Source of the DNA: an uncultured Bacteroidota bacterium
GTDB lineage: Bacteria; Bacteroidota; Bacteroidia; Bacteroidales; SZUA-534
DNA: 64,000 bases
Reading direction: 5' to 3'
Assembly (NCBI GenBank): GCA_946414435.1
Contig: CAMKOM010000012.1
Span: 2,980-66,979, forward strand
The notes beneath the pieces were generated by a model. The model was not told where the DNA came from, ran no database searches, and saw only the letters and a list, made by a program, of their open reading frames with translations. Both the position numbers and the translations under genes were made by a program. Shown here piece after piece: positions 1-13,128 of this stretch; the first letter of the stretch is position 1; every line of letters begins with the position of its first letter.

Positions 1-1553
1 TACCCGTTAAGCAACAAAATTGCAAACAAGTCAAAATCACATTGAAGTAATGCTGAACACAACAGATACTGGCTTGCCACGCGATTGTTTGTGTTGGCAA
101 GAAACACTTCGACCATGTTGTTTTGCCTACTCTGCATATAGAAATCGCCTTTCGGATGTTGTTTTCTGACATTGTTAACAAAATCTCTATTCAAATCAGT
201 ATCCTCATCACCTTCCATGAAATTACGTCTGTCTGTAACAAACTTTCCGGAAAACATTACGTGCTCATACTTTTCAATAAATTTTTCAGCGGTCTGATAA
301 TCTCCGATAATTATCAGACAATCAATTACCATACGCATAACATAATGGCTTTCCGTGTATGTGGATTGTGCTTCGAATGCAAAATGCAATGCACTTGTTA
401 CAAGTCCCAAATTGTAATAAAACATTGAAACCGGATAACCGATGTTGGTTGCCATCGGTTTGTCAAGAAACAATCCTTGATTACCCAAAAGTTGCGGATA
501 GTAGAATATTTTTTCGGGCAACTGATTGTTTTGTGCTAGAGCCATATCGTAATAGAAATTTACAAAACGGTCATAGTTTGATTTTTCACTCAATTGTTTG
601 TTATTCTTCATATAACGAAGAATCCAATTCCAATCTTTTTGGTACGCGGCAACCTCCATCTTGAATCCGGCTCGTTCAACCGGATTGTCGTGTCGATGTT
701 GGAAAAACACAGTGCCAGCCGCAATCAGCACCACTGCCAATACCGATATTAATATGGCCTTTTTCTCTATTTTGATCCGGTTATAGGCATAGCCAATAGC
801 GATCAATGCGGGCAAACTGATGAAATACCAATAAGGAACAATTGTGTTCTTGAAACTTACAAACATCAGTTTTTGCGGACGAATGTCGTAGAATGCGCCT
901 TCGGGCTTTATTGGCATTATGAGCTTATACACTATCAGTGGCCAAAGAAGAGCAACAGCAATTGTGCCTACTAAGCCGGTCAAGTCTCGTTTATCGACTT
1001 TCAGCGCAAATTGCACAATAACACAGGCTGTATACGTGTAGAGTGCAACGGCACCACACGCATGATAGACAGTCACTGCCAGCAATGGCGCAACAATATT
1101 ATGCCAATTGTATTTTATCAAAGCCTGCTGCAAATTCAAGGCTGCAGCTAGCAACAGAACCTGCATGTTGATGGCAAAGGCGTATTTTATGTCGGACCAA
1201 GCAACAAAGGAAATCGCCACAGGAAGAATATACGCAAGCATTGCCACATAAGGGTTGTCACCAATAAGCTTCCGGACATATCGAGCTATCAGGAATGATG
1301 TTGCAAACAGCTCCGCCACAAGCAACAAAGCTCCAACAAAACGGAACATTGTAAACTGGTCGATGAACATTTGCATATATTCCGACAAACCACCAACCTC
1401 ATTAACAGTTGAACAGAAATAATCGGTTGTGAGCACAAATGCCGGTTGCTGGAAAATATTGTAGCACAATGGATTTATCACGTAATAGACAAACCATGCC
1501 AACAATGCGTATGACACCATAACGGGTATCCAACAAATTGGTTTCTTGATCAT
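1..1553 (-). CDS. multi-pass membrane protein, C-terminal end beyond left window edge; resembles Bacteroidota DUF6057-type proteins (family name from memory, unverified)
   Basis: ATG at 1553-1551. Hand translation MIKKPICWIPVMVSYALLAWFVYYV... stays open to nt 1, and with no stop in the window the ORF track omits it. Several hydrophobic segments are followed by a soluble helical region. The + ORFs 123..428 and 359..664 are shadows of it. Confidence 0.6.
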   Translation of the reverse strand, partial: MIKKPICWIPVMVSYALLAWFVYYVINPLCYNIFQQPAFVLTTDYFCSTVNEVGGLSEYMQMFIDQFTMFRFVGALLLVAELFATSFLIARYVRKLIGDNPYVAMLAYILPVAISFVAWSDIKYAFAINMQVLLLAAALNLQQALIKYNWHNIVAPLLAVTVYHACGAVALYTYTACVIVQFALKVDKRDLTGLVGTIAVALLWPLIVYKLIMPIKPEGAFYDIRPQKLMFVSFKNTIVPYWYFISLPALIAIGYAYNRIKIEKKAILISVLAVVLIAAGTVFFQHRHDNPVERAGFKMEVAAYQKDWNWILRYMKNNKQLSEKSNYDRFVNFYYDMALAQNNQLPEKIFYYPQLLGNQGLFLDKPMATNIGYPVSMFYYNLGLVTSALHFAFEAQSTYTESHYVMRMVIDCLIIIGDYQTAEKFIEKYEHVMFSGKFVTDRRNFMEGDEDTDLNRDFVNNVRKQHPKGDFYMQSRQNNMVEVFLANTNNRVASQYLLCSALLQCDFDLFAILLLNG

Positions 1554-1635
1554 ATTTTCAGTTTTACACAGAGTTGCGAAAATAACCAAATTAAATATCT
1601 GCACAGTTTTTCAACCCGAAAAAACCACCTTCGCT

Positions 1636-2730
1636 CTATTCCGCTTTTGCGTCGCCAATCAGTTTGAAAAATACCTGTTTAGGGCACCGGTAATTGTCGA
1701 AAAGCAAGGGGAAGTTCTTGCGCCCGCGCACCGGATAGTTGTTGAGCCAAGAGTTGCGGTCATCCAAGCCCCAGAAGGTGACGTTTGTAACTACATCGCA
1801 ATTCTTACGCAAGACATCGAAAATCATCTGATATTGTGCGGTCTGCGCGGCCTTTTTCTCATCGTCGTAGATGGTGACCTCGCGGCGGCGCATGGTGCGG
1901 CGATTTGATTCCCACTTGTAAAGCGAAACATCGAGTTGCGTGATATGCACCTGCAAGCCCATCGAGCGGAAGCGCGCAATGGCTGTCTCGAGCTGCTCGC
2001 GCGTAGGCTCGTAAAGCGACCAGTGGCCCTGCATTCCCACTCCGTCGATATGCACACCCTTGTCAATCAGGCGCTGAAGCATCTGACAGGTGCGCTCCAG
2101 CTTGTCGGGACGGTTCAGGTTGTAGTCGTTGTAGAAAAGCAGCGCGGTTGAGTCGGCCTCGTGGGCGCAACGGAAAGCGTGCTCAACATATTCGTCGCCG
2201 GCAATCTGATAGAGCCACGTGTTCTGTCGCAAGATAATAGTGGTGTCGTCAGCTACGGCGTTGCTCACCACATCCCAGCAGTAAACCTTGCCTTGATAGC
2301 GTTGCATAATAGTCTGAATATGAGCCTGCATACGACTGAAAAGCGAGTCTTTCGACGTAATGCGCTCACCGTCGAAGCACATCCAGTCGGGCATCTGGTC
2401 GAAACGGATAAGGCAGTTGCCGCGCACCTTCATATTGTTTCGCTGTGCGAAATCGACCACCTCGTCGGCCACACGCCAGCGGTAGCGGTTCTGCCGAGGG
2501 TGCATAATGGCGGGTGTCATCTCCTCCTCGCACGTCAGGCTATTGTAGTGCTTAATAATAAAATTGGTGTCGTTCATACTGCGCACAATGCTGCGGTTAA
2601 TCAGCACTCCCACAGGAAAATAGTCGGAAAACGACTCGCAAAGGCTCGGTATGCGGTCCTCGTTGGTTGAGCAACTTGCCAACGAGACTGTCAGTGCGGC
2701 CGAAATAGCAAAACAACTTATTTTATTCAT
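1636..2730 (-). CDS. GH10 (xylanase) fold lipoprotein with both catalytic glutamates substituted; probably non-catalytic
   Basis: Likely start is MNKISCFAISAALTVSLASCS (lipobox LASC) at 2730. GH10 landmarks LFYNDYN, IDGVGMQGH and VTFWGLDD are present. However, WDVVNE reads WDVVSN, ITELD reads ITQLD, ENEMKW reads EEEMTP, and RGHTLVWH reads RGNCLIRF. Confidence 0.85.
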   Translation of the reverse strand: MNKISCFAISAALTVSLASCSTNEDRIPSLCESFSDYFPVGVLINRSIVRSMNDTNFIIKHYNSLTCEEEMTPAIMHPRQNRYRWRVADEVVDFAQRNNMKVRGNCLIRFDQMPDWMCFDGERITSKDSLFSRMQAHIQTIMQRYQGKVYCWDVVSNAVADDTTIILRQNTWLYQIAGDEYVEHAFRCAHEADSTALLFYNDYNLNRPDKLERTCQMLQRLIDKGVHIDGVGMQGHWSLYEPTREQLETAIARFRSMGLQVHITQLDVSLYKWESNRRTMRRREVTIYDDEKKAAQTAQYQMIFDVLRKNCDVVTNVTFWGLDDRNSWLNNYPVRGRKNFPLLFDNYRCPKQVFFKLIGDAKAE

Positions 2731-2754
2731 ATACAAATGTTTATTTTTACGTAT

Positions 2755-2780
2755 AGAAGTGCAATGCATTGCGCCTCTAC
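2755..2780 (-). repeat. GTAGAGGCGC-type hairpin after the LRR gene
   Basis: Minus-strand sense reads GTAGAGGCGCAATGCATTGCACTTCT, an imperfect stem of about 10 bp around a TGCA loop. The first 10 nt are identical to the uxuA terminator at 9364. Confidence 0.6.
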
Positions 2781-2789
2781 CTATTACAA

Positions 2790-4508
2790 TCAATCGTTCA
2801 CCATCACCTGTTTGGCAATGTTCCCAACCTTGACAATATAAACACCAGTGCCGTTGACCTGCAATTCGGTGCGAACGCCCGATTCGGCAACCGTAGAGAC
2901 GTTGCGAGCAACGTTTCTACAAACCAATGTGCCCATAACGTTATAAACGCTGATTTCTTCCGTAGCATTCTCAACCACAATGTTTTTGCCGTAGGCATAG
3001 ATGCTAACAGCGTTGGCGGCTGTTTCGGTGACGGGGGTGGCAGTCTGCCATATAATATTTCCTTGATAAATATTATAACGGCTACCGTCCCAATTATAAT
3101 GGGTTCCATCCCAATTATAATCCCAACCATTCGGCCTTTCTTTGAAATCGCAATATATTGTTGCGACACAACCCGCAAATGCATAATAACCAATAGTATC
3201 GACAGTATTAGGTATGGTTACTGATTTCAAATTTGTACAATGGTAGAATGCATATTGACCAATGTTTACAACAGCATCTGGAATAACAATATCGCCACCA
3301 TTGCCTATGTATGCTGTCAAGTGAGTCTTTTCTGCATCGGAATAAACAAAGTCACCTTCAATTATGCCATTTACTGTAAGTGCTCCCCACGGACTGCCTT
3401 CTGCGTTGCCTGAATATATAATATTTTTGGCCATACAGAACGCATCTTCGCCGATGCTTGCAACTGTATTTGGAATGGTTATTGATGAAATGTTATAACA
3501 ATTCCAGAACGCTTCTTTACAGATGCTTGTAACTGAAGTCGGAATGGTTATTGATGTAATGTTATAACAATCATCAAAGGCTCCTTCGCCAATGCTTGTA
3601 ACCGAATTAGGTATTGTAACTGAAGTTAGGCCTCTCCATCCGGCAAAAGTATAATCGCCAATGCTGTCAATTGTGTTTGGAATTTCCAACTCTGTAACTT
3701 CGGTTCCACTTATACACAAACGATGAGCACACGATAGCGGATTAGAATAATAAGATTCAAAATCTATTTCTAACAAATGCTCAATACTTGCAAATTCGGC
3801 TTTTGAAAGATTATCGCAATCCAGAAACGCACCTGTGCCAATGCTCTTTACTGAATTTGGAATAATAACCGAAGTTAGACCACTGCATCCCTCAAAAGCA
3901 TAACTGCCAATTCTGTTAATTGTGTTTGGAATCACAATTTCTGTAACTTCTGTTCCGTTTATATATAGACTATGAGCACTCCATAACGGATTAGCGTAAA
4001 AAGGTCCAAAATCTATTTCTAATAAACTTTCAATACTTGCAAATTCGGCTTTAGTAAGGTTGTCGCAACCTTGAAACGCGCAACGTTCGATATTTTTTAC
4101 GGAACTAGGAATGGTAACTGATGTTAGACTAAGACAATCATCAAAAGCCCACGCGCCAATGCTTTTTACAGAATTAGGAATGGTAACTGATTTTAATTTT
4201 AAGCAACCGGGAAAAGATGATTCTCCGATGCGAGTAACAGTATTAGGGATAATTACTGATGTAAGTTTATTGCAGGCGGCAAAGCCCCCCCAACTTATTT
4301 CAGTAATTGTGTAAGTTACTCCATCATTCTCAACTGTTGAGGGAATGACAAGGTCACCTATAATTTGTGATGTGTCTGCAGCACCAATTGATACATAGTG
4401 TTCTTCTGCATCGATTATTTTGTATTTAAAATTGTCAACAACAAACTCCTGTGCCCACGCCTGCCCTGCAAGCATTACAGCAAACATTAGTGTGAAAATC
4501 TTTCTCAT
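2790..4508 (-). CDS. BspA-type leucine-rich-repeat surface protein with T9SS C-terminal sorting domain
   Basis: The track start at 4544 is TTG. ATG at 4508 gives the signal peptide MRKIFTLMFAVMLAGQAWAQ. About 23-aa repeats of the form IPNSVxSIGxxAFxxCxxLTSVTIP are present. The C-terminus IYAYGKNIVVENATEEISVYNVMGTLV...GVYIVKVG is a typical T9SS CTD. Confidence 0.85.
   Translation of the reverse strand: MRKIFTLMFAVMLAGQAWAQEFVVDNFKYKIIDAEEHYVSIGAADTSQIIGDLVIPSTVENDGVTYTITEISWGGFAACNKLTSVIIPNTVTRIGESSFPGCLKLKSVTIPNSVKSIGAWAFDDCLSLTSVTIPSSVKNIERCAFQGCDNLTKAEFASIESLLEIDFGPFYANPLWSAHSLYINGTEVTEIVIPNTINRIGSYAFEGCSGLTSVIIPNSVKSIGTGAFLDCDNLSKAEFASIEHLLEIDFESYYSNPLSCAHRLCISGTEVTELEIPNTIDSIGDYTFAGWRGLTSVTIPNSVTSIGEGAFDDCYNITSITIPTSVTSICKEAFWNCYNISSITIPNTVASIGEDAFCMAKNIIYSGNAEGSPWGALTVNGIIEGDFVYSDAEKTHLTAYIGNGGDIVIPDAVVNIGQYAFYHCTNLKSVTIPNTVDTIGYYAFAGCVATIYCDFKERPNGWDYNWDGTHYNWDGSRYNIYQGNIIWQTATPVTETAANAVSIYAYGKNIVVENATEEISVYNVMGTLVCRNVARNVSTVAESGVRTELQVNGTGVYIVKVGNIAKQVMVND
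3567..4067 (-). repeat. internal tandem duplication (2 x about 249 nt / 83 aa) in the LRR gene
   Basis: CDNLTKAEFASIESLLEIDFGPFYANPLWSAHSLYINGTEVTEIVIPNTINRIG... is repeated as CDNLSKAEFASIEHLLEIDFESYYSNPLSCAHRLCISGTEVTELEIPNTIDSIG.... Identical DNA runs include caatacttgcaaattcggctt. Confidence 0.8.
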
Positions 4509-4558
4509 AGTTATTGTGTTTAATAGTTCTTTTTGTTCCGACAATAATATTGTAATCG

Positions 4559-4566
4559 CAAATATA
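4559..4566 (-). promoter_or_regulatory. -7 box for the LRR gene
   Basis: Minus strand TATATTTG, 51 nt upstream of the ATG at 4508. Confidence 0.4.
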
Positions 4567-4617
4567 CGAAGTTTTCACTTCCTATTCCGCCCTATCCTGC
4601 CAACGTTGTTAAATTAT

Positions 4618-4645
4618 TTGCAACCGATTGCAACAAATGTTGCAA
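4618..4645. promoter_or_regulatory. candidate LacI-family operator cluster (three TTGCAAC half-sites)
   Basis: TTGCAACcgaTTGCAACaaatGTTGCAA. Positions 4619-4632 (TGCAACCGATTGCA) fit the LacI/GalR consensus TGnAAnCGnTTnCA at every fixed position. Positions 4628-4645 are a 7-bp inverted repeat. The cluster lies just upstream of the lacI -7 box, in the divergent promoter region. Confidence 0.5.
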
Positions 4646-4653
4646 AATTATAT

Positions 4654-4661
4654 TATGTTTG
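4654..4661 (+). promoter_or_regulatory. Bacteroidetes -7 promoter box (TAnnTTTG) for the LacI gene
   Basis: TATGTTTG, 20 nt upstream of the ATG at 4681. Confidence 0.45.
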
Positions 4662-4680
4662 CCTGTCAAACATTCGGAAA

Positions 4681-5697
4681 ATGGAAAAGAGCGAGATAAC
4701 CATCTACGACATTGCCAAAGAGTTAGGCATCTCGGCATCGACCGTGAGCCGCGCGCTGAACAACAACGCAAGCGTGAGCCAGAAAACGCGGCAGGAAGTG
4801 GCCGACTGCGCCGAGCGGCTCGGCTATCGCAACAACCCGTTTGCGGCAAACCTGCGCAAGGGCACAACCAACACCATTGGCGTGATTGTGCACCGCCTGG
4901 ACAGCCTTTTCATATCGGCATTCCTGAGCGGGGCCGAGAAAGCGGCGGCTTCGCGCGGTTACCAACTGATTATTGTTCAGTCGTTTGAAGACTCGAACAA
5001 AGAGATTGCCAACGCCAAGACAATGCTCGAAAAGCGCGTCGACGGACTGCTGGTGGCCGTGGCCAAAAACAGCGACTCGGTGGCGCACTTCAAGCCGTTC
5101 AACAACTTCGGCATCCCGCTCGTATTCTTCGACCGAATCATCCCCAACCTTGACTGCGCAAGTTTCTCGATTGACAACTACTCGGCGGCCTGCAAAGTGG
5201 CCACACACCTTGCCGAGCAAGGCTGCCGCGACATTGTGCACGCCACCATCGAATCAACTTCAATGGTGTATCGCGAGCGCGAGCGCGGATTCAACGAGAC
5301 GCTCGACAGGCTCGGAATCAGGCACCGCACGCTGCTAATGCCGAACATCGATTTTGAATCGGGCAAGGATTTGGCCAACTCACTGAAAGCCAGCGGACAA
5401 ATGCCCGACGGCGTATTCTTCAGCAACGATATGTCGGCCACAGGATTCATTACCGGAGCACAGGAACTTGGGCTGAATGTGCCTGACGATGTGGCAGTTG
5501 TGGGATTCAACAACGACATTACAAGCCGCATTGTGAAACCCAACCTAACAACCATCAACTACCCCGCCAACGAACTCGGCACAATGGCCACCAACCACAT
5601 TATCGACCATCTGCAAGGCATTAACAATCTGTATGTTACCAACCAGGTGGTGCTGAAATCGGATTTGATTGTTAGAGAGTCGTCAGTTAGGATTTAG
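4681..5697 (+). CDS. LacI-family transcriptional regulator
   Basis: ATG at 4681, MEKSEITIYDIAKELGISASTVSRALNN (HTH), followed by a periplasmic-binding-fold sugar domain. The upstream part of track ORF 4420.. is non-coding promoter sequence. Confidence 0.9.
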   Translation: MEKSEITIYDIAKELGISASTVSRALNNNASVSQKTRQEVADCAERLGYRNNPFAANLRKGTTNTIGVIVHRLDSLFISAFLSGAEKAAASRGYQLIIVQSFEDSNKEIANAKTMLEKRVDGLLVAVAKNSDSVAHFKPFNNFGIPLVFFDRIIPNLDCASFSIDNYSAACKVATHLAEQGCRDIVHATIESTSMVYRERERGFNETLDRLGIRHRTLLMPNIDFESGKDLANSLKASGQMPDGVFFSNDMSATGFITGAQELGLNVPDDVAVVGFNNDITSRIVKPNLTTINYPANELGTMATNHIIDHLQGINNLYVTNQVVLKSDLIVRESSVRI

Positions 5698-5761
5698 GAT
5701 TTTTGAATTACGAATTACGATTCACCGAAAAGAAATAATTCACCAATTAAACTATAAGGCA
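5686..5761 (+). repeat. mosaic intergenic element L1 (lacI / GH67 gap)
   Basis: gttaggatttaggattt - gaattacgaattacga - ttcaccg...attcaccaattaaac. The first module contains the lacI stop codon. Confidence 0.8.
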
Positions 5762-7870
5762 ATGAGAATCAAAAATTTAACATCAGTTACATTTGTGGCG
5801 GCGGGGCTGCTGGCTTTGGCTTCGTGCTCAAACAACAACACACGCACAACCATCGGCAACGACGGTCACCTGCTGTGGTTCAACTCGTTACAAATGGAAG
5901 CGCCTGCAACGCTCGGTCCGACGACCTTGCAGATTGCGCAGGAAAACATTGCAAAATATTGGAAATCAGACCGCAAGGTTGAACTGAAACTGAACAACGA
6001 AGCCGTGGCCGAACTAGGAACGGAAGGCTTTGAAATCGATTTTTCGGGCGCAAATATCTGTGCGTCAGCCAATAGCGAAGTTGGTCTGCTCTACGCTTCG
6101 TACGAACTTCTGCGCCTTCAGGAAACCGACGGGCTGGCCGCTCAAAACGGCAAACTGACGAGCGTTCCCGCCTTCGAGCGCCGCGTGCTCAACCACTGGG
6201 ACAACCTTGACGGCACTGTTGAGCGCGGTTTTGCGGGACATTCGCTTTGGAAATGGGACGAAATCAACGCCGACGACGTGGCCGCCAACAGCAACATCTA
6301 CGCCGAATACGCCCGCGCCAACGCATCGGTGGGCATCAACGGAACGGTGCTGAACAACGTGAACGCCAACGCCGACATCCTGACAGAAGATTATCTGCTG
6401 AAAGTGAAGGCTTTAGCCGAAATTTTCCGCCCGTACGGACTGAAGGTCTATCTGTCGCTGAACTTTGCGGCGCCAAAACATCTGGCCAACTTTGAAACAT
6501 CGGACCCACTTGATAATGAAGTGGTTGCGTGGTGGAACGCGAAGGTGGCCGAAATCTACAAACTGATTCCCGATTTTGGCGGTTTTCTGGTGAAAGCCAA
6601 CTCTGAAGGGCAGTCGGGACCGCAAGACTACGGCCGCACGCACGCCGACGGCGCCAATATGATTGCCAAAGCGCTTGAGCCGTTTGGCGGAATTGTTATG
6701 TGGCGCGCCTTTGTGTACGACGCCAAAAGTCCAGACCGCGCTAAACAGGCGGTTGAAGAGTTTATGCCGCTTGACGGCCAATTTGCTGATAATGTGCTGA
6801 TTCAGATAAAGAACGGCCCTGTCGATTTTCAGCCGCGCGAGCCGTTCAGCCCGCTTTTCGGACAGTTTGAGAAGACTCAGGCAATGGTTGAAGTGCAGAT
6901 TACGCAGGAATATCTGGGCCACTCGAACCATCTGGTGTTTATGCACCCAATGTGGAAAGAGTGCTTGGATTCAGACACTTACGAGCGTGGCGAAGGCTCA
7001 ACAGTGGGCGCCATCACCGAAGGCAAGGTTATGCCATATAAATACACGGCCATTGCGGGCGTGAGCAACGTGGGCAACGACCGCAACTGGTGCGGCCACC
7101 ATTTCGCGCAGGCCAACTGGTACGCCTACGGACGAATGGCCTGGAACCCCGAGTTATCATCGGAACAGATTGCAAATGAATGGCTTATGCAGACATTCTC
7201 GAAAGATAAAAAGTTTGTTGAGCCTGTCGGGAAGTTAATGGTGGCATCGCGTGAAGCGTGCGTGAAATACGAAATGCCGCTCGGCCTGCACCACACCTTC
7301 AAAGGCCCCGACCACTACGGACCTGGCCCGTGGGACCGCTCAATCCGTCCCGACTGGGAACCCGCCTACTACCACAAGGCTGCCGCCGACGGCGTGGGCT
7401 TCGACCGCACAATGAATGGCTCGGGCGCCGTGGCGCAATATCACGAACCGCTGAAATCGTTGTACAACGACGTGGCCACCTGCCCCGAAAACCTGATTCT
7501 GTGGTTTCACCACCTGCCGTGGGACTACAAAATGAAGAGCGGACGCACGCTCTGGGACGAGTTGTGCCTGACATTCCAATCGGGTATCGACGATGCCAAA
7601 TCATTCGTCAAGACCTGGAACTCGATTGAACAATACGTTGACCAACTGCGTTTTACCGATGTCAAAATAAAACTTGAGCGCCAGGCGAAGGACGCTATAT
7701 GGTGGCGCGATGCGACAATCCAGTACTTCCAGCAATTCTCGGGAATGAAACTGCCCGACGGCTGCCAGCCGTTCCAGCAGAAACTCGACAAACTTATGAA
7801 GTACCGCATCGGCATCACCAACTACGAGAATCCGAAGATTGAAACGCTGCCTGAGTATAAATTGGATTGA
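5762..7870 (+). CDS. aguA: GH67 alpha-glucuronidase, lipoprotein
   Basis: ATG at 5762, MRIKNLTSVTFVAAGLLALASCS. GH67 motifs RVLNHWDNLDGTVERGFAGHSLW and LVKANSEGQSGP are present, and the length of about 700 aa fits. Confidence 0.9.
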   Translation: MRIKNLTSVTFVAAGLLALASCSNNNTRTTIGNDGHLLWFNSLQMEAPATLGPTTLQIAQENIAKYWKSDRKVELKLNNEAVAELGTEGFEIDFSGANICASANSEVGLLYASYELLRLQETDGLAAQNGKLTSVPAFERRVLNHWDNLDGTVERGFAGHSLWKWDEINADDVAANSNIYAEYARANASVGINGTVLNNVNANADILTEDYLLKVKALAEIFRPYGLKVYLSLNFAAPKHLANFETSDPLDNEVVAWWNAKVAEIYKLIPDFGGFLVKANSEGQSGPQDYGRTHADGANMIAKALEPFGGIVMWRAFVYDAKSPDRAKQAVEEFMPLDGQFADNVLIQIKNGPVDFQPREPFSPLFGQFEKTQAMVEVQITQEYLGHSNHLVFMHPMWKECLDSDTYERGEGSTVGAITEGKVMPYKYTAIAGVSNVGNDRNWCGHHFAQANWYAYGRMAWNPELSSEQIANEWLMQTFSKDKKFVEPVGKLMVASREACVKYEMPLGLHHTFKGPDHYGPGPWDRSIRPDWEPAYYHKAAADGVGFDRTMNGSGAVAQYHEPLKSLYNDVATCPENLILWFHHLPWDYKMKSGRTLWDELCLTFQSGIDDAKSFVKTWNSIEQYVDQLRFTDVKIKLERQAKDAIWWRDATIQYFQQFSGMKLPDGCQPFQQKLDKLMKYRIGITNYENPKIETLPEYKLD

Positions 7871-8121
7871 GGAGTTAGAAGTTAGGAGTTAGAAGTTAGA
7901 AATTTTAGGAATTAGGAGTTAGAAATTAGAAATTAGGATATGAAAATGGTGTTGGGTGCTGGGTGTTAGTTAATTATGAATTACGAATTACGAATTACGA
8001 CCGCTGACTGAAGTCTGTTGTCCGTAGTCTGAAGTCCAAAACTAAACAATTCACCGATTCAACATTCAATCCTTCAGTTATTCAATTAGTCTGTTAATTA
8101 TCAATTAATTATAAAACATAA
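7871..8121 (+). repeat. mosaic intergenic element L2 (GH67 / uxuA gap), archetype
   Basis: The whole 251-nt gap reads as: (TTAGGAG/TTAGAAG/TTAGAAA)x10, ggtgttgggtgctgggtgttag, (gaattacg)x3, ctgactgaagtctgttgtccgtagtctgaagtcc, aaactaaacaattcaccgattcaac, attcaatccttcag. Confidence 0.85.
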
Positions 8122-9342
8122 ATGGCACTAGAAAAAACTTGGCGCTGGTTCGGGTTCAACGACCCAATCACGCTCGACAATTTGGTACAAATGGGTGTTG
8201 AAGGCGTTGTGACGGCCTTGCACCACCTTCCCATCGGCGTTGTATGGGAGAAAGACGAGATTCTGAAAGTGAAGAACGCTATCGAGGCGAAGGGAATGCG
8301 CTGGAGCGTGGTGGAGAGCCTGCCCGTGAGCGAGGCCATCAAAACCTGCTCGGCCGAGCGCGACCTACACATCGAGAACTACAAGAAATCGCTGCAAAAC
8401 CTTGGCGAGTGCGGCATCGACACTGTCTGCTACAACTTCATGCCGGTGCTCGATTGGACGCGTACATCGCTGACATACAAGCATTTTGGCGGTGGCGAAG
8501 GTTTGTATTTCGATTTCACAACGTTTGTGGCGTGGGACTGCTACATTCTCTGCCGCCCCAACGCCGAGAACGAATACCCCGCCGACGTGGTGGCAAAGGC
8601 GAAGGAACTGTTCAAGACCTTCAGCAAGGAGAAATGCGAGGAGTTGACCTACATCATCATTGTGCTGACGCAAGGCTTTGTGAACGGCGTGATTGACGGC
8701 ACTGTGAAGGACCCCAAAGCGCTGTTCCTGAAGTATATATCGACTTACAAAGACATTGACAAGGAGAAGTTGCGTGCCAATATGAAGCGCTTCCTTGACG
8801 ACGTGATTCCGACTTGCGAGAAGTACAACGTGAACCTGTGCGTTCACCCCGACGACCCACCGTATCCTGTTCTGGGAATGCCGCGTATCATCGGCTGTAT
8901 GGACGACTTGGAGTGGCTGCGCAAGGCCAATCCGAGCCTGCGCAACGGCATCACCTACTGCACGGGCTCACTTTCGGGCCGCCCCGACAACGACCTGGTG
9001 GCCATTGCCGAGCGCTTTGCCGACGCCATCCACTTTGTGCACCTGCGCAACACGCAGCACCTGGACGATTTCAGTTTCTACGAGTCGGGCCACCTGAAAG
9101 GCAGCCTTGATATGCCCGCCATTGTTGAGGCCTTGCTCAAGGAGCAGCAGCGCCGCATCAAGGAAGGCCGCAAGGACATTCGTATGCCCTTCCGCCCCGA
9201 CCACGGCATCCGCATTCTGAACGACCTTGACGCCGACAAGAACATCTACAACGCAGGCTACCCGCTCTGCGGCCGTATGCGCGGCCTGGCGGAAATCGCA
9301 GGTCTGATGACGGGTATTGAATATGAGTTGACGAAGAAATAA
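8122..9342 (+). CDS. uxuA: mannonate dehydratase
   Basis: The 406-aa product begins MALEKTWRWFGFNDPITLDNLVQMGVEGVVTALHH, the typical UxuA N-terminus, and the similarity runs the full length. Confidence 0.93.
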   Translation: MALEKTWRWFGFNDPITLDNLVQMGVEGVVTALHHLPIGVVWEKDEILKVKNAIEAKGMRWSVVESLPVSEAIKTCSAERDLHIENYKKSLQNLGECGIDTVCYNFMPVLDWTRTSLTYKHFGGGEGLYFDFTTFVAWDCYILCRPNAENEYPADVVAKAKELFKTFSKEKCEELTYIIIVLTQGFVNGVIDGTVKDPKALFLKYISTYKDIDKEKLRANMKRFLDDVIPTCEKYNVNLCVHPDDPPYPVLGMPRIIGCMDDLEWLRKANPSLRNGITYCTGSLSGRPDNDLVAIAERFADAIHFVHLRNTQHLDDFSFYESGHLKGSLDMPAIVEALLKEQQRRIKEGRKDIRMPFRPDHGIRILNDLDADKNIYNAGYPLCGRMRGLAEIAGLMTGIEYELTKK

Positions 9343-9363
9343 AATATTATAATGTGTTTGATT

Positions 9364-9398
9364 GTAGAGGCGCCACACTTGTGACGCCTCTACTTTTT
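9364..9398 (+). terminator. rho-independent terminator after uxuA (GTAGAGGCG-type hairpin)
   Basis: GTAGAGGCGccacacttgtgaCGCCTCTAC followed by TTTTT. Confidence 0.8.
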
Positions 9399-9410
9399 AT
9401 AATAACACAC

Positions 9411-9432
9411 AAAAAAGCCCGCCGAAGCGGGC
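9411..9432 (-). terminator. rho-independent terminator after alaS
   Basis: Minus strand GCCCGCttcgGCGGGC followed by TTTTTT. Confidence 0.8.
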
Positions 9433-9443
9433 TTTGTCGTTTA

Positions 9444-12059
9444 TCATATCATCCCCACAATCACGTTCACGGCCTTATCCAAACCGTCGGCGTTTTTGCC
9501 GCCAGCTGAAGCAAAGAACGGCTGGCCGCCGCCGCCGCCTTGAATCTCTTTGGCGGCTTCGCGAATCATTTGTGAGGCGTTCAAACCTGTGGCAACCAGC
9601 GCATCGCTCATTGCAATGGTTAGCGACGGTCTGCCGTCGAATTTTGCGCCAGCTACAAACAAGAACTTATCCTTCACCTCACCACGGATTCTGAAGGCCA
9701 AATCCTTCAGTGCGTCGGGGCTCATCTCAATGCCCACAGGCAGACGGAACAGCTTTACATCGCCCTTCGTCTCAGCATTTGCGAGCAAATCGGCTTTTAT
9801 CTTTTGGATTTTCTCCTGCATAAACTTCTCAATGTCGCGCTTCAGTTCGGCGTTCTCGTCAACGGTCTTTTTTATGGTCTGCGCCAAATTGGGCACGTTG
9901 TTGAACATCTCCTTCAGCGAGCGAATGACATCTTGCTGCGTGTCGAACAGGTTTTCTGCCTTTTCGGCGGTCACAGCCTCGATACGGCGCACACCCGCGG
10001 CAACCGAACTCTCCGACACAACCTTTATCAACCCAATCTCACCCGTGGCGTGAACGTGGGTACCGCCGCAAAGCTCAATCGACGGACCGTATTTAATGAC
10101 GCGCACCGTATCGCCGTATTTCTCACCAAACAGCGCCATCGCGCCAAGCGCTTTTGCCTCGGCGATAGGCATATTGCGGTTCTCCTCCAAAATCAAATTC
10201 TGACGTACAAGTTTGTTTGCAATATGCTCGGCCTGACGAATCTCTTCATCGGTAACTTTTTGGAAATGAGAGAAATCGAAGCGCAGGCAATCAGGCGACA
10301 CCATTGAGCCCTTCTGCTCAACGTGAGTGCCAAGCACCTGGCGCAAAGCGTAATGCAGCAAGTGTGTTGCCGTGTGGTTGTTGGCCGTTTGTTGGCGACG
10401 CTCCACATCGACAATGGCACGGAACGTGGCTGTCGGGTCTTTCGGCATCGATTTTGCCAAATGAACGCTCAATTTGTTCTCTTTCTTTGTATCAATAATT
10501 TCAACGCGCTCACCGTTGCACTCCAACCAGCCGGTATCGCCAAGCTGACCGCCCATTTCGGCGTAGAACGGCGTGCGGTTGAGCACAATCTGATATAGCT
10601 CTTGATTCTTCTGTTTCACCTTGCGGTAGCGCAAAATCTCGACATCGGCCTCTAGCAAGTCGTAGCCCACAAACTCCGATTCGCCCTCCTGCAAATAAAC
10701 CCAGTCACCGGTCTCGACGGCAGCGGCGTTGCGGGCGCGTTCCTTCTGCTTCTGCATTTCGGCGTTGAACTCGTCGTTGTTGGCTGTCAGGCCGTTCTCG
10801 CGAAGGATAAGCTCGGTCAGATCGAGCGGAAATCCGTAGGTGTCGTATAGTGTAAAGGCTTCGACGCCAGTAATTTCGGTCTTGCCGGCGGCCTTTGTGT
10901 CGGCCATGATCTTGTCGAGCAGACGGATACCTGTCTCCAATGTGCGAAGGAATGCTTCCTCCTCTTCTTTCATCACCTTCGCAACCAAATCCTGCTGCGC
11001 CAGAAGTTCGGGATAAGCCTCGCCCATAGTATCGTTGAGCACTGGCAGCAGCTTGTACATAAACGCCTTGCGTTGTCCAAGGAACGTGTATCCGTAGCGG
11101 ACGGCGCGGCGCAGAATGCGGCGGATAACATAACCGGCCTTTGCGTTCGATGGCAGCTGACCATCGGTTATCGAGAAAGCAATTGTGCGCACGTGGTCGG
11201 CCACAACGCGCATTGCCACGTCAACCTTCGGGTCTTTGCCGTACTCGCAGTCACAAATGCGGCCTATCTCTTTGATTATGGGTTGGAAAACATCGGTGTC
11301 GTAGTTCGATTTCTTGCCCTGTAGAGCCATACACAGGCGCTCGAAGCCCATTCCCGTATCTACGTGCTTGTGCGGCAGAAGTTCGAGTGAGCCGTCGGCC
11401 TTGCGGTTGTATTGCATAAACACAAGGTTCCAAATCTCGATAACCAGCGGATTGCTTTGGTTCACAAGTTCGCGGCCAGGCAGTTTGGCGCGCTCGGCGT
11501 CATCGCGCAGGTCGATATGAATCTCAGAGCACGGACCGCAGGGGCCTGTAGCTCCCATTTCCCAGAAATTGTCGTGCTTGTTGCCGTGGATTACTCGGTC
11601 TTTTGGCAGATATTGCAGCCAAATCTCTTCGGCTTCGGTGTCAAGGTCAAGGTTTTCCGACGCATCGCCTTCAAACACTGTGGCATACAGACGGTCGACA
11701 GGCAGCTTATACACCTCGGTGAGCAACTCCCACGCCCAGGCAATGGCCTCTTTCTTGAAATAGTCACCAAACGACCAGTTGCCGAGCATCTCGAACATTG
11801 TGTGGTGATAGGTGTCGTGGCCCACTTCTTCAAGGTCGTTGTGCTTGCCCGACACACGCAGGCATTTCTGGCTGTTGGCCACACGCGGCCACTTGCGGGG
11901 CGATATACCAAGGAAAATATCCTTGAACTGGTTCATACCGGCGTTGGTGAACATTAGCGTCGGGTCGTCTTTGATAACCATCGGCGCGCTGCTCACAATC
12001 TGGTGCTGTTTCGATGCAAAGAAATCTTTGAACTGATTGCGTATCTCTTTAGATGTCAT
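9444..12059 (-). CDS. alaS: alanine--tRNA ligase
   Basis: 871 aa. Contains [28 protein letters not shown] and [10 protein letters not shown], the HxxxH editing motif ([13 protein letters not shown]) and a C-terminal DHHA1 region. Confidence 0.97.
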
Positions 12060-12098
12060 ATTGTTATATGTTTAATTGTTTCATTTTACAGAGAGTTG

Positions 12099-12106
12099 CA
12101 AACTTA
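12099..12106 (-). promoter_or_regulatory. -7 box for alaS
   Basis: Minus strand TAAGTTTG, 40 nt upstream of the ATG at 12059. Confidence 0.45.
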
Positions 12107-12119
12107 TTCCTTTTTTCAT

Positions 12120-12127
12120 TAGTTTTG
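12120..12127 (+). promoter_or_regulatory. -7 box for the M23 peptidase gene
   Basis: TAGTTTTG, 30 nt upstream of the ATG at 12157. Confidence 0.45.
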
Positions 12128-12156
12128 CTATGTAAAAATCGTGTTTTCAGAAAATA

Positions 12157-13128
12157 ATGTCAGAACCGAAGTACAGTTTCAATCCGGAAAGTCTGAGTTA
12201 TGATAAAATAACGCTCACTCCCCGACAAAAAATCCTCAAATTTTTAAAGGGAGTTTTGTTATTTGCTTTTGTCTCATTTTTGTTTGTTATAGTACTGTCC
12301 ACACTATTCGACACTCCTGGCGAGAAAATTCAGAAACGCGAGAACAAACAATTGCTTTACCAATACGAACTTTTAAGTAAAAAGGTTGAAAGCATGGAAC
12401 ACAGCATGGATGAAATCCAACAGCATGATGACAATATTTACCGTCACATTTTCGGCATCGACCCGATACCAGAAAGCAAACGAATGGCTGGTGTTGGCGG
12501 TTCAAATCCATATAAGGATCTGGAGCAGTATTCAAAATCGGAATTGTTAATTGAAACATCGAAAAAGATTGACAATCTGGCTCGCAGAATGGTTGTACAG
12601 GCTGAATCGTACGACAACATTATGAAACTGGTTGAAGACAAAGAAAAATTTCTAGCTTCAGTTCCAGCCATATCTCCCATTGCCGACCGCAATTTGCGGC
12701 GATTTGCATCTGGTTACGGCTACCGCATCCACCCCATATACCGTACACTGAAATTGCACAACGGCATTGACCTAACTGCACCAACTGGCACAAAAGTGTA
12801 CGCTACGGGCGGAGGCAAGGTCATCAGTGCGGGATATGCGGCCGGAGGCTACGGCATCAAGGTGATTATTGACCACGGCTATGGCTACAAAACGCTTTAT
12901 GCACATCTTAGCAAGGCAATGGTGAAGGTTGGCAAACGTGTCGCTCGCGGTGATGTGATCGGCGAAGTTGGCAGTACAGGCCGTTCTACGGCACCACACC
13001 TGCACTACGAAGTCCGGAAAAACGACCAGACAGAAAATCCTGTCAACTACTACTATACGGACCTGACGCCAGAAGAATATGAAGAGATGATCAATGTCTC
13101 GAGCCAAATGACAATGAGTTTTGACTAA
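12157..13128 (+). CDS. M23 family metallopeptidase (membrane anchored)
   Basis: N-terminal TM helix and coiled coil, followed by HNGIDLTAPTGTKVYATGGGKV and GSTGRSTAPHLHYEV. Confidence 0.9.
   Translation: MSEPKYSFNPESLSYDKITLTPRQKILKFLKGVLLFAFVSFLFVIVLSTLFDTPGEKIQKRENKQLLYQYELLSKKVESMEHSMDEIQQHDDNIYRHIFGIDPIPESKRMAGVGGSNPYKDLEQYSKSELLIETSKKIDNLARRMVVQAESYDNIMKLVEDKEKFLASVPAISPIADRNLRRFASGYGYRIHPIYRTLKLHNGIDLTAPTGTKVYATGGGKVISAGYAAGGYGIKVIIDHGYGYKTLYAHLSKAMVKVGKRVARGDVIGEVGSTGRSTAPHLHYEVRKNDQTENPVNYYYTDLTPEEYEEMINVSSQMTMSFD

What the first reader, a model, noticed from the sequence alone, without database searches (positions are those of the whole stretch)
1636..2730. GH10-fold lipoprotein lacking both catalytic glutamates: likely a pseudo-xylanase
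Seen in sequence: the fold landmarks of family GH10 are retained (LFYNDYN, IDGVGMQGH, VTFWGLDD).
- The acid/base motif WDVVNE reads WDVVSN. Codons at 2265-2260 are AGC AAC.
- The nucleophile motif ITELD reads ITQLD. The codon at 1938-1936 is CAA, one nucleotide away from GAA.
- Further conserved -1 subsite residues are changed: ENEMKW reads EEEMTP, and RGHTLVWH reads RGNCLIRF.
- The ORF is intact and has a lipoprotein signal (LASC). It sits next to a LacI regulator, a GH67 alpha-glucuronidase and uxuA.

Established knowledge: GH10 enzymes are retaining glycosidases that need these two glutamates.

Inference: the protein is probably non-hydrolytic. It may have been repurposed as a surface xylan or xylo-oligosaccharide binding protein (SGBP-like) or as a sensor component.
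Basis: partly seen in the sequence, partly recalled or inferred. Interest (0 to 1): 0.65.

Follow-up and report, generated by a model that had tools for sequence, protein, structure and literature searches.

The report
Catalytically dead GH10 xylanase-like lipoprotein
A rumen Bacteroidales bacterium keeps, under strong selection, a lipoprotein that has a xylanase's fold but has lost both catalytic glutamates and five other sugar-contacting residues, so it most likely binds xylan fragments rather than cutting them; one unrelated example of this kind is already known.

Summary
ORF 1636-2730 (-) is a full-length GH10 (Pfam E=5e-82; AF2 pLDDT 90.7; TM 0.87-0.96 to xylanase IXT6). The acid/base Glu is Asn157 and the nucleophile Glu is Gln265. 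N44, K47, H80, W84 and N126 (Cex numbering) are also replaced.

All 106 active relatives keep these seven residues, and 0 of 24 clade members do. The clade is monophyletic, has a long stem (0.54 subs/site), and forms a single 50%-identity cluster among 1.84 billion representatives. It was found only in ruminant-foregut Bacteroidales MAGs.

It is not a decaying gene. All ORFs are intact, and dN/dS is 0.10, the same as the neighbouring GH67. The old catalytic face is as constrained as the rest of the protein. Gln265 is encoded by both CAA and CAG. Fragments appear in six metatranscriptomes.

The context is always xylan-related but never a SusC/D PUL: LacI-GH67-UxuA here, GH43-CBM6 elsewhere, and an HTCS sensor directly upstream in the deepest branches.

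Best reading: a non-catalytic xylan or xylo-oligosaccharide-binding lipoprotein. Whether it faces the surface or the periplasm is unresolved. Precedent exists: BACOVA_03431, an inactive GH10 SGBP (Rogowski 2015). This looks like an independent, more extensively remodelled origin. No binding data exist.

The parts
1636..2730 (-). Pseudo-GH10 lipoprotein gene (364 aa plus stop)
   Evidence: Intact ORF. PF00331 E=5.3e-82. AF2 pLDDT 90.7, TM 0.87/0.96 to IXT6. dN/dS about 0.10.
2671..2730 (-). Signal peptide II with lipobox L-A-S-C (Cys20 at 2673-2671)
   Evidence: Read directly from the sequence. A lipobox is present in 24 of 24 clade members.
2653..2670 (-). S-T-N-E-D-R, a clade-conserved polar and acidic motif after the lipidated Cys; a possible lipoprotein export signal
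   Evidence: An acidic pair is present in 21 of 24 clade members against 2 of 38 active lipoprotein relatives. It lies at +5/+6, later than the published C-X-K-(D/E)2 (PMC5080379) and CS(D/E)2 (PMC6222051) signals.
2515..2529 (-). E68-E69-E70-M71-T72, replacing the ENxMK motif (N44 to E, K47 to T; -2/-1 subsites)
   Evidence: Position 69 is acidic in 24 of 24 clade members and N in 106 of 106 actives. Position 72 varies in the clade and is K in 106 of 106 actives.
2404..2418 (-). N105-C-L-I-R109, replacing H-T-L-V-W (H80 to N, W84 to R; -1 subsite)
   Evidence: N in 20 of 24 and R in 21 of 24 clade members. H and W in 106 of 106 actives.
2260..2265 (-). S156-N157, replacing N126 and E127 (the catalytic acid/base)
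   Evidence: N157 in 22 of 24, encoded by both AAC and AAT.
1936..1938 (-). Q265 (CAA), replacing the catalytic nucleophile Glu
   Evidence: Q in 24 of 24, encoded by CAA in 4 and CAG in 7 of 11 DNA sequences.
2751..2780 (-). Degenerate REP-like hairpin between the BspA gene and the pseudo-GH10
   Evidence: Perfect copies (GAGACGCAATGCATTGCGTCTC) occupy the same place in L001, L004-L006 and L008.
2790..4508 (-). BspA-type LRR gene, a low-GC variable insert between LacI and the pseudo-GH10
   Evidence: PF13306. GC is 37-38% against about 54% in the flanks. Identity between species is 35-68%, and the gene is absent in L010.
4628..4645 (+). Perfect palindrome TTGCAACAAATGTTGCAA, a likely LacI operator just upstream of a TAnnTTTG-type -7 box (4654-4661)
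   Evidence: It is the only exact copy in the window. The same site lies in the LacI/pseudo-GH10 divergent spacer of L010. A metatranscriptome contig starts at 4675.
4681..5697 (+). LacI-family regulator
   Evidence: PF00356 and PF13377. 92-99% identical in orthologous loci.
5762..7870 (+). GH67 alpha-glucuronidase, a lipoprotein (LALASC) with no acidic motif after the Cys
   Evidence: PF07488 and PF07477. Transcribed in runs X2, X3 and X6.
8122..9342 (+). UxuA mannonate dehydratase
   Evidence: PF03786.
3..1553 (-). DUF6057 membrane protein (runs off the window), the most constant downstream neighbour of the pseudo-GH10
   Evidence: PF19529. It follows the gene in every locus that extends past its 3' end (L001-L008, L013-L017) except L009 and L010. 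L011 and L012 end at or inside the pseudo-GH10 gene.

Best explanation
The gene encodes an outer-membrane-anchored lipoprotein that descends from a small IXT6-like GH10 xylanase of a xylan-utilisation cluster. One ancestral event in a ruminant-foregut Bacteroidales lineage removed the hydrolytic machinery: nucleophile Glu to Gln265, acid/base Glu to Asn157, plus N44, K47, H80, W84 and N126. The (beta/alpha)8 barrel and half of the cleft were kept (Y200, N201, Y203, Q234, H236, W237, D267, and mostly W320 and W328).

Since then the protein has been held by purifying selection. It most likely works as a non-catalytic carbohydrate-binding protein. It would hold xylan or decorated xylo-oligosaccharides in the remodelled cleft without cleaving them, in support of the xylan-debranching and uronate genes it travels with (GH67, GH43-CBM6, GH51, UxuA).

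Shown here:
- loss of the catalytic residues;
- a single origin;
- constraint on the protein, including the former catalytic face;
- in vivo RNA fragments;
- the xylan-linked gene context.

Inferred, not shown:
- absence of activity;
- ligand binding and its specificity;
- cell-surface versus periplasmic orientation.
For: (1) Catalytic loss. The alignments agree, and 7 positions invariant in 106 of 106 active relatives are changed in 24 of 24 clade members.
(2) Fold kept. PF00331 matches full length. pLDDT is 90.7. TM is 0.87/0.96 with rmsd 1.6 A to IXT6. Of 77 positions conserved in at least 97% of actives, 57 are kept.
(3) Selection. All 11 complete ORFs with DNA are intact; L012 is cut by its contig end. 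Median dN/dS is 0.10 over 45 pairs, against GH67 0.096, LacI 0.069 and DUF6057 0.145. The catalytic-face codons give 0.073 against 0.082 for the rest.
(4) The replacement residues are themselves fixed and survive synonymous change: Q265 CAA/CAG, N157 AAC/AAT, R109 CGT/CGC, E69 GAG/GAA. Seven positions are re-fixed to a new residue.
(5) One origin with a burst of change. The clade has SH-aLRT 100 and a stem of 0.54 subs/site, the longest internal branch.
(6) Context. UxuA-GH67-LacI lies beside it here and in L001, L004-6, L010, L012 and L017. GH43-CBM6 lies directly upstream in L008, and GH51 is in the L010 cluster. Its GC (54%) matches the GH67 cluster and not the low-GC flanks.
(7) RNA. Fragments occur in X3, X6, X7, X8 and X12, and an 8.2-kb contig in X2.
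(8) Precedent. The inactive GH10 BACOVA_03431 binds xylan on the cell surface (PMC4491172). The engineered E140Q/E248Q CbXyn10C binds xyloheptaose (PDB 5OFK title).
(9) Lipobox in 24 of 24 and a conserved acidic pair after the Cys in 21 of 24.
Against: - There is no binding or activity measurement.
- No SusC/D pair is found in the window or any of the 17 clade loci, unlike known SGBPs.
- The acidic pair is at +5/+6, while published export signals have it at +3/+4 or +4/+5 and position mattered in C. canimorsus. Surface exposure is therefore uncertain.
- The changes hit exactly the residues that hydrogen-bond the -1 and -2 xyloses.
- A 6-of-24 subclade has also lost both -1 subsite tryptophans (W320S, W328R). 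Xylan binding through the old minus subsites is therefore not assured, and the ligand could be something else.
- Metatranscriptome contigs are low-depth and DNA carry-over cannot be excluded.
- The rest of the genome could not be searched.
Confidence: 0.55

Rival explanations
1. It is a periplasm-facing ligand-binding partner of a sensor. [quoted passage not shown] This would resemble the way a periplasmic chitin-oligosaccharide-binding protein controls the ChiS sensor in Vibrio (recalled from memory).
For: The HTCS gene is immediately upstream on the same strand in all three deepest lineages: a 4-nt ATGA overlap in L011, a 14-nt gap in L014 and a 28-nt gap in L016. The HTCS proteins are orthologous across that split, at 58% identity over 974 aa. 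The closest active relative sits in an HTCS-headed xylan cluster. Small IXT6-like GH10s of Bacteroidota clusters mostly lack an export-signal-like motif (2 of 38), so the ancestor was probably periplasmic. The clade's acidic pair is off-register for known export signals.
Against: Adjacency to an HTCS is what any regulated target gene would show. HTCS sensors bind their oligosaccharide directly and no accessory lipoprotein is known. The crown group, including this window, has lost the adjacency yet keeps the gene under the same constraint. The clade-specific conserved acidic motif after the Cys argues for surface export.
Confidence: 0.15
2. It has a non-carbohydrate role. The barrel would be kept as a scaffold for protein-protein interaction or envelope function, for example with the DUF6057 membrane protein that nearly always follows it.
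For: DUF6057 lies downstream in every locus that reaches past the 3' end of the gene except L009 and L010. The sugar-contacting residues of the -1 and -2 subsites are gone, and two more tryptophans are lost in a subclade. The clade is unusually Cys-rich, with a median of 7 against 2, and has an invariant clade-specific C188.
Against: The catalytic-face loops are at least as constrained as the rest of the protein (dN/dS 0.073 against 0.082). Plus-subsite and several -1 residues are kept (Y203, Q234, H236, W237). The upstream partners change but are always xylan-related. DUF6057, a PD40-repeat gene and an aminotransferase gene follow in the same order from basal to crown members (L001 and L014), which looks like backbone synteny rather than functional coupling. 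DUF6057 evolves much faster, at 51-61% identity.
Confidence: 0.12
3. It is still an enzyme, with new chemistry. Re-fixed residues (E/D69, R109, N105, N157, Q265, conserved Cys) would form a different active site, or catalysis would be substrate-assisted on uronic-acid-decorated substrates.
For: Seven formerly invariant positions are re-fixed to specific new residues rather than drifting. Position 69 is always acidic. The stem-branch burst followed by constraint is the signature of neofunctionalisation. The gene is linked to GH67 and uronate genes.
Against: No retaining GH10 works without the nucleophile carboxylate (established GH10 and Clan GH-A mechanism). E-to-Q nucleophile mutants are used as inactive crystallographic tools (5OFK). 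Position 69 lies at the -2 subsite, away from the scissile bond. The acid/base position tolerates N, C and G.
Confidence: 0.07
4. It is a decaying pseudogene or an assembly or strain artefact.
For: None beyond the loss of the catalytic residues.
Against: There are 24 distinct intact sequences from independent assemblies, hosts and countries. dN/dS is about 0.1. Synonymous codon turnover occurs at the substituted sites. RNA fragments are present.
Confidence: 0.02

Closest known systems
BACOVA_03431 of Bacteroides ovatus PUL-XylL, the 'inactive GH10' surface glycan-binding protein (Rogowski et al. 2015, PMC4491172)
   Same: It is a lipoprotein with GH10 similarity that has lost the catalytic nucleophile and has a disrupted -2 subsite. 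It is inactive on xylans and was shown to bind xylan. It is a Bacteroidota xylan-utilisation accessory. It offers the best analogy for how the present protein probably works.
   Different: It lies inside a SusC/D 'core xylan utilisation cluster' of a PUL (PMC4855328), whereas no clade locus has SusC/D. [quoted passage not shown] It comes from a human-gut Bacteroides, and this clade from a rumen lineage. None of the 149 representative clusters nearest to this clade lacks the nucleophile, so this is very probably an independent origin. Its surface location and binding were measured; here they were not.
IXT6 (Geobacillus stearothermophilus, PDB 2q8x/1n82) and XynB (Paenibacillus barcinonensis, 3emc), small single-domain 'intracellular' GH10 xylanases
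   Same: They are the closest solved structures (E about 3e-88, about 40-45% identity, TM 0.87/0.96, rmsd 1.6 A). They have the same size and barrel, and are linked to alpha-glucuronidase clusters that process oligosaccharides (the last point from memory).
   Different: They are active enzymes with both glutamates and the full NKHWNEQHEWW signature. They are cytoplasmic and not lipoproteins.
Engineered double mutant CbXyn10C E140Q/E248Q in complex with xyloheptaose (PDB 5OFK)
   Same: It is a GH10 barrel whose two catalytic Glu are amides. It still binds a long xylo-oligosaccharide across the cleft (entry title). The natural N157/Q265 pair mimics this.
   Different: It is laboratory-made and all other subsite residues are intact. 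In the natural clade five further -1/-2 residues have changed.
GH18 chitinase-like lectins (chi-lectins), named by Rogowski et al. as the conceptual parallel
   Same: They are TIM-barrel glycoside hydrolase descendants that lost catalytic residues and persist as glycan-binding proteins.
   Different: They belong to a different family and mechanism and are eukaryotic. The resemblance is conceptual only.

Membership tests
GH10 (sequence and fold family, Pfam PF00331) | Full-length match to the family profile above the curated threshold | tested here: met
   276 bits against a cutoff of 22.1, residues 30-356 matched to profile 2-307/311.
GH10 (sequence and fold family, Pfam PF00331) | (beta/alpha)8 barrel superposable on solved GH10 enzymes | tested here: met
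   AF2 pLDDT 90.7 and pTM 0.87. All top 50 Foldseek hits are GH10 entries (nearly all natural xylanases, plus one designed GH10-fold enzyme), the best with TM 0.87/0.96 and rmsd 1.6 A.
GH10 retaining endo-xylanase (functional enzyme) | Catalytic acid/base Glu at the end of beta-4 (WDVVNE) | tested here: not met
   It is Asn157. The clade has N in 22, C in 1 and G in 1, while 106 of 106 actives have E.
GH10 retaining endo-xylanase (functional enzyme) | Catalytic nucleophile Glu at the end of beta-7 (TELD) | tested here: not met
   It is Gln265. The clade has Q in 24 of 24, while 106 of 106 actives have E.
GH10 retaining endo-xylanase (functional enzyme) | Conserved -1/-2 subsite residues N44, K47, H80, W84, N126 (Cex numbering, from memory) | tested here: not met
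   All five are replaced in 24 of 24 clade members and kept in 106 of 106 actives.
GH10 retaining endo-xylanase (functional enzyme) | Measurable xylanase activity | not testable with these tools
   This needs a recombinant protein assay.
Inactive-GH10 surface glycan-binding protein (BACOVA_03431 type) | GH10-like lipoprotein lacking the nucleophile | tested here: met
   Lipobox LASC and Q265.
Inactive-GH10 surface glycan-binding protein (BACOVA_03431 type) | Encoded in a xylan PUL next to SusC/SusD | tested here: not met
   There is no SusC/D in the 64-kb window or in the 17 clade loci L001-L017.
Inactive-GH10 surface glycan-binding protein (BACOVA_03431 type) | Surface exposure | tested here: inconclusive
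   A conserved acidic pair follows the Cys in 21 of 24 members, but at +5/+6 rather than +3/+4 or +4/+5.
Inactive-GH10 surface glycan-binding protein (BACOVA_03431 type) | Binds xylan | not testable with these tools
   This needs ITC, affinity gels or a glycan array.
Inactive-GH10 surface glycan-binding protein (BACOVA_03431 type) | Common descent with BACOVA_03431 | tested here: inconclusive
   The sequence was not obtainable with these tools. Indirectly, the clade is one isolated 50% cluster and none of the next 149 clusters lacks the nucleophile, which argues for an independent origin.
Pseudogene | Disrupted frame or neutral evolution (dN/dS near 1) | tested here: not met
   The ORF is intact in all complete copies. 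dN/dS ranges from 0.047 to 0.155.

The most novel reading that the evidence does not exclude
The dead xylanase is an enzyme-derived periplasmic co-sensor. In the ancestral HTCS / pseudo-GH10 / DUF6057 cassette it would capture a specific decorated xylo-oligosaccharide, possibly uronic-acid-bearing, through the re-fixed Arg109, Asn105 and Glu69 pocket. It would then gate the hybrid two-component system. This would be the first accessory ligand-binding lipoprotein described for a Bacteroidota HTCS.
Probability: 0.1. Interest if true: 0.8.

Novelty: new variant of a known kind. Interest (0 to 1): 0.55.

Why it matters
- **A second natural inactive GH10.** In 2015 Rogowski et al. wrote that no other naturally inactive GH10 had been described, and a full-text search for the phrase 'inactive GH10' found only papers referring to that one. 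This clade would be a second and apparently independent case. It is also more thoroughly remodelled: both glutamates and five subsite residues are changed, and seven positions are re-fixed. That gives a natural experiment in turning a glycosidase cleft into a lectin site, and a candidate binding module with possibly new specificity for decorated xylan.
- **An annotation error in rumen surveys.** JGI names one clade member 'endo-1,4-beta-xylanase', and the best NCBIfam hit is a xylanase/feruloyl-esterase model, though far below its cutoff. The gene will therefore tend to be counted as a xylanase, and CAZyme inventories of these abundant ruminant MAGs may overstate their xylanolytic capacity.
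- **A testable regulatory hypothesis.** The HTCS adjacency in the deep branches suggests how non-PUL Bacteroidales might couple glycan binding to sensing.

Tried and rejected
- **Misalignment hiding glutamates elsewhere.** Rejected. Three independent alignments agree and are ungapped at the motifs: phmmer to PDB, MAFFT of 130 sequences, and hmmalign of 165 domains. My first hmmalign read-out used a wrong column offset and was discarded.
- **Sequencing error or strain-specific mutation.** Rejected by 24 sequences from independent assemblies and by CAA/CAG turnover.
- **Decaying pseudogene.** Rejected.
- **Canonical PUL SGBP.** No SusC/D was found anywhere.
- **A LacI operator directly upstream of the gene in this window.** Not found. 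The only exact palindrome is at 4628-4645, 1.9 kb away beyond the BspA insert. It abuts the pseudo-GH10 promoter only in L010.
- **Run X1 as expression evidence.** Rejected. Coverage is uniform across all genes and the library is labelled GENOMIC.
- **Anionic-ligand idea from the clade-specific arginines.** Support is weak. Median pI is 8.4 against 7.3 and net charge +3 against 0, but the R-for-K swap (31/13 against 17/29) may be compositional.
- **Rfam scan of 1-12500.** Only one sub-threshold rsmX hit, probably chance.
- **DUF6057.** No PDB or NCBIfam relative was found.
- **A second GH10 copy in the window or loci.** None found.
- **Direct comparison with BACOVA_03431.** The sequence was not retrievable with the available collections.
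Full report
**1. The observation**

Window 1636-2730 (minus strand) is an intact 364-codon ORF ending in TAG. Its N-terminus, MNKISCFAISAALTVSLASC, is a signal peptide II with lipobox L-A-S-C.

Pfam GH10 (PF00331) matches residues 30-356 to profile positions 2-307 of 311, at E=5.3e-82. The best solved relatives are the small 'intracellular' xylanases XynB (3emc) and IXT6 (2q8x, 1n82), at E about 3e-88. Their alignments are ungapped around every motif:
- WDVVSN lies opposite WDV(V/I)NE.
- ITQLD lies opposite (V/I)TELD.
- TCEEEMT lies opposite TAEN(Q/H)MK.
- RGNCLIRF lies opposite RGHTLVWH.

An AlphaFold2 model built on 30 sequences is a confident barrel (pLDDT 90.7, pTM 0.87). It superposes on IXT6 with TM 0.87/0.96 and rmsd 1.6 A, and the top 50 PDB matches are all GH10 entries.

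**2. It is a clade, not an accident**

A search of 5.8 billion proteins found 14 clusters at 66-95% identity, followed by a gap down to 50% or less. A scan of GTDB species representatives found the gene in 10 genomes. All are ruminant-foregut MAGs (cattle, sheep, water buffalo, yak) labelled Salinivirgaceae or uncultured Bacteroidales.

I aligned 24 distinct clade sequences with 106 active relatives. N44, K47, H80, W84, H85, Q87, N126, E127, Q203, H205, E233, W273 and W281 (Cex numbering, from memory; anchored here by motif) are invariant in all 106 actives. None of the 24 clade members keeps N44, K47, H80, W84, N126, E127 or E233.

The clade has instead fixed its own residues:

| Position | Residue in clade | Count |
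|---|---|---|
| 265 (nucleophile) | Gln | 24/24 |
| 157 (acid/base) | Asn | 22/24 |
| 69 (N44) | Glu or Asp | 24/24 |
| 109 (W84) | Arg | 21/24 |
| 105 (H80) | Asn | 20/24 |

Of the 77 positions conserved in at least 97% of actives, 57 are kept, 7 are re-fixed to a different residue and 13 vary.

The clade is monophyletic (SH-aLRT 100), so a single loss is enough to explain it. Its stem of 0.54 substitutions per site is the longest internal branch of the tree.

A profile search of 1.84 billion 50%-identity representatives returns the clade as one cluster (681 bits), and the next hit scores 417 bits. Among 165 GH10 domains in the next 149 clusters, none lacks the nucleophile and only three lack the acid/base residue, which is Gly in each.

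**3. It is functional**

All complete copies are open. Nei-Gojobori dN/dS is 0.047-0.155 with a median of 0.10 over 45 pairs. That cannot be told apart from the neighbouring GH67 (0.096), and it lies between LacI (0.069) and DUF6057 (0.145).

Codons of the former catalytic face (strand ends plus beta-alpha loops) give 0.073, against 0.082 for the rest of the mature protein. The cleft side is therefore still constrained.

The replacement residues persist through synonymous change: Q265 is CAA in 4 and CAG in 7 sequences, N157 is AAC or AAT, and R109 is CGT or CGC.

Fragments of the gene occur in true metatranscriptomes X3, X6, X7, X8 and X12, with little or nothing on the flanking BspA and DUF6057 genes. 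X2 holds an 8.2-kb contig spanning BspA, the pseudo-GH10 and DUF6057 in a relative about 93% identical. Run X1 looks like DNA and was disregarded. This is modest evidence for transcription in vivo.

**4. Context**

In the window the order is DUF6057 (3-1553, -), pseudo-GH10, BspA-type LRR gene (2790-4508, -), then on the plus strand LacI (4681-5697), GH67 (5762-7870) and UxuA (8122-9342). The rest of the 64 kb holds housekeeping genes, with no SusC/D pair.

The pseudo-GH10 shares the 52-57% GC of the LacI-GH67-UxuA block, whereas BspA has 37-38%. BspA varies between species (35-68% identity) and is absent in L010. There the pseudo-GH10 is directly divergent from LacI-GH67-SDR-UxuA-GH51.

A perfect palindrome, TTGCAACAAATGTTGCAA (4628-4645), is the only exact copy in the window. 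It sits just upstream of a TAnnTTTG-type box and of the point where a metatranscriptome contig begins (4675). The same site lies in the shared spacer of L010. It is probably the LacI operator.

In L008 the upstream gene is a GH43-CBM6. In the three deepest branches the upstream gene is a hybrid two-component system on the same strand:
- P0013 in L014/L015, with a 14-nt gap;
- P0011 in L016, with a 28-nt gap;
- the P0015-like gene in L011, with a 4-nt ATGA overlap.

These HTCS proteins are orthologous across that split, at 58% identity. The closest active relative, P0017, lies in an HTCS-MFS-GH10-GH43-GH10-GH115 cluster.

So the gene descends from a xylanase of an HTCS-regulated xylan cluster and has stayed with xylan-debranching or xylan-sensing genes ever since, but never in a SusC/D PUL. 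DUF6057 follows it in every locus that reaches past its 3' end except L009 and L010. DUF6057, a PD40-repeat gene and an aminotransferase gene keep the same order from basal to crown members. I read that as backbone synteny.

**5. How it most likely works**

Established GH10 chemistry needs the beta-7 carboxylate as nucleophile and the beta-4 carboxylate as acid/base. With both gone, and with the residues that grip the -1 xylose (K47, H80, N126, W84) also gone, hydrolysis at this centre is not credible.

What remains is a barrel with an open cleft that keeps Y200, N201, Y203, Q234, H236, W237 and D267, and in 18 of 24 members W320 and W328. It now carries an Arg, an Asn and an acidic residue where W84, H80 and N44 used to be.

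A laboratory E-to-Q/E-to-Q GH10 binds xyloheptaose (5OFK). The natural inactive GH10 BACOVA_03431 binds xylans on the B. ovatus surface. I therefore favour a non-catalytic xylan or xylo-oligosaccharide-binding lipoprotein (0.55).

Orientation is open. The clade-specific C-[ST]-T-N-[DE]-[DE]-R motif is present in 21 of 24 members against 2 of 38 active lipoprotein relatives. It resembles a lipoprotein export signal, but it is one to two residues out of register with the published ones.

The HTCS adjacency keeps a periplasmic co-sensor role alive (0.15). A subclade that has also lost both tryptophans warns that the old minus subsites may not be the binding site.

**6. Comparison and novelty**

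The kind is known. Rogowski et al. (2015) described BACOVA_03431 as an inactive GH10 acting as an SGBP and noted that no other natural case was known. A full-text search for 'inactive GH10' found only papers that refer to that one.

The present clade differs in several ways. It has no PUL context, it has lost both glutamates and five more subsite residues, it belongs to a different (IXT6-like) GH10 lineage, and it lives in the rumen. It is probably an independent origin, so I rate it a new variant of a known kind.

It fails the functional tests for a GH10 xylanase while passing the fold and sequence tests. It also fails one defining feature of the BACOVA_03431-type SGBP, the PUL context, and two more features are untestable here.

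**7. Limits**

There is no biochemistry. Earlier scan notes say the genome also has a GH10-esterase fusion and a GH8 elsewhere, which I could not verify.

Noticed in passing
L014:2-4195, L016:64-2931, L011:1-2922: In the three deepest branches of the clade, a hybrid two-component system gene ends 14 nt or 28 nt before the pseudo-GH10 start codon, or overlaps it by 4 nt. The HTCS proteins are orthologous (58% identity). The crown group, including this window, has lost the adjacency.
   Followed up: partly
window 3-1553 and L001-L008, L013-L017: DUF6057, a polytopic membrane protein with no PDB or NCBIfam relative, is the most constant neighbour of the pseudo-GH10 but evolves fast (51-61% identity, low GC). 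Whether the two are functionally coupled is unknown.
   Followed up: partly
window 7870-8000: The GH67-uxuA spacer is made of low-complexity TTAGGAGTTAGAAG-type repeats. It shows very high summed depth (up to about 210) in all four RNA runs. This is probably a repeat shared by many organisms and not a highly expressed RNA.
   Followed up: no
window 2751-2780; L001, L004-L006, L008 upstream of the gene; also L009, L013: A family of REP-like palindromes (GTAGAGACGCAATGCATTGCGTCTCTAC and variants) recurs in intergenic spacers of these genomes. The window copy is degenerate.
   Followed up: no
window 2790-4508: The BspA-type LRR gene has 37-38% GC against about 54% in its flanks. It is 35-68% identical between species and absent in L010, so it is a variable, probably acquired insert that splits the LacI/pseudo-GH10 divergent pair.
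   Followed up: partly
P0005, P0008, P0009, P0010, P0014, L013: A subclade replaces FWGLDDRNSWLNNYPV with FSGLDDRSYRQ..., losing both -1 subsite tryptophans. P0005 is 92% identical to the window protein overall but carries this C-terminal patch, which suggests recombination between alleles.
   Followed up: no
P0242 (domain 2), P0239, P0224: Three other GH10 representative domains, unrelated to this clade, have Gly at the acid/base position but keep the nucleophile. They are possible further natural GH10 variants with altered or lost activity.
   Followed up: no
P0001 residues 118, 188 and others: The clade is Cys-rich, with a median of 7 against 2 in active relatives. C188 is invariant where 85% of actives have Tyr, and C118 stands where actives have Phe.
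   Followed up: no
window 5762-5830: The GH67 is itself a lipoprotein (LALASC) and has no acidic residue until about 13 residues after the Cys. It is probably periplasm-facing, in contrast with the acidic motif of the pseudo-GH10.
   Followed up: no
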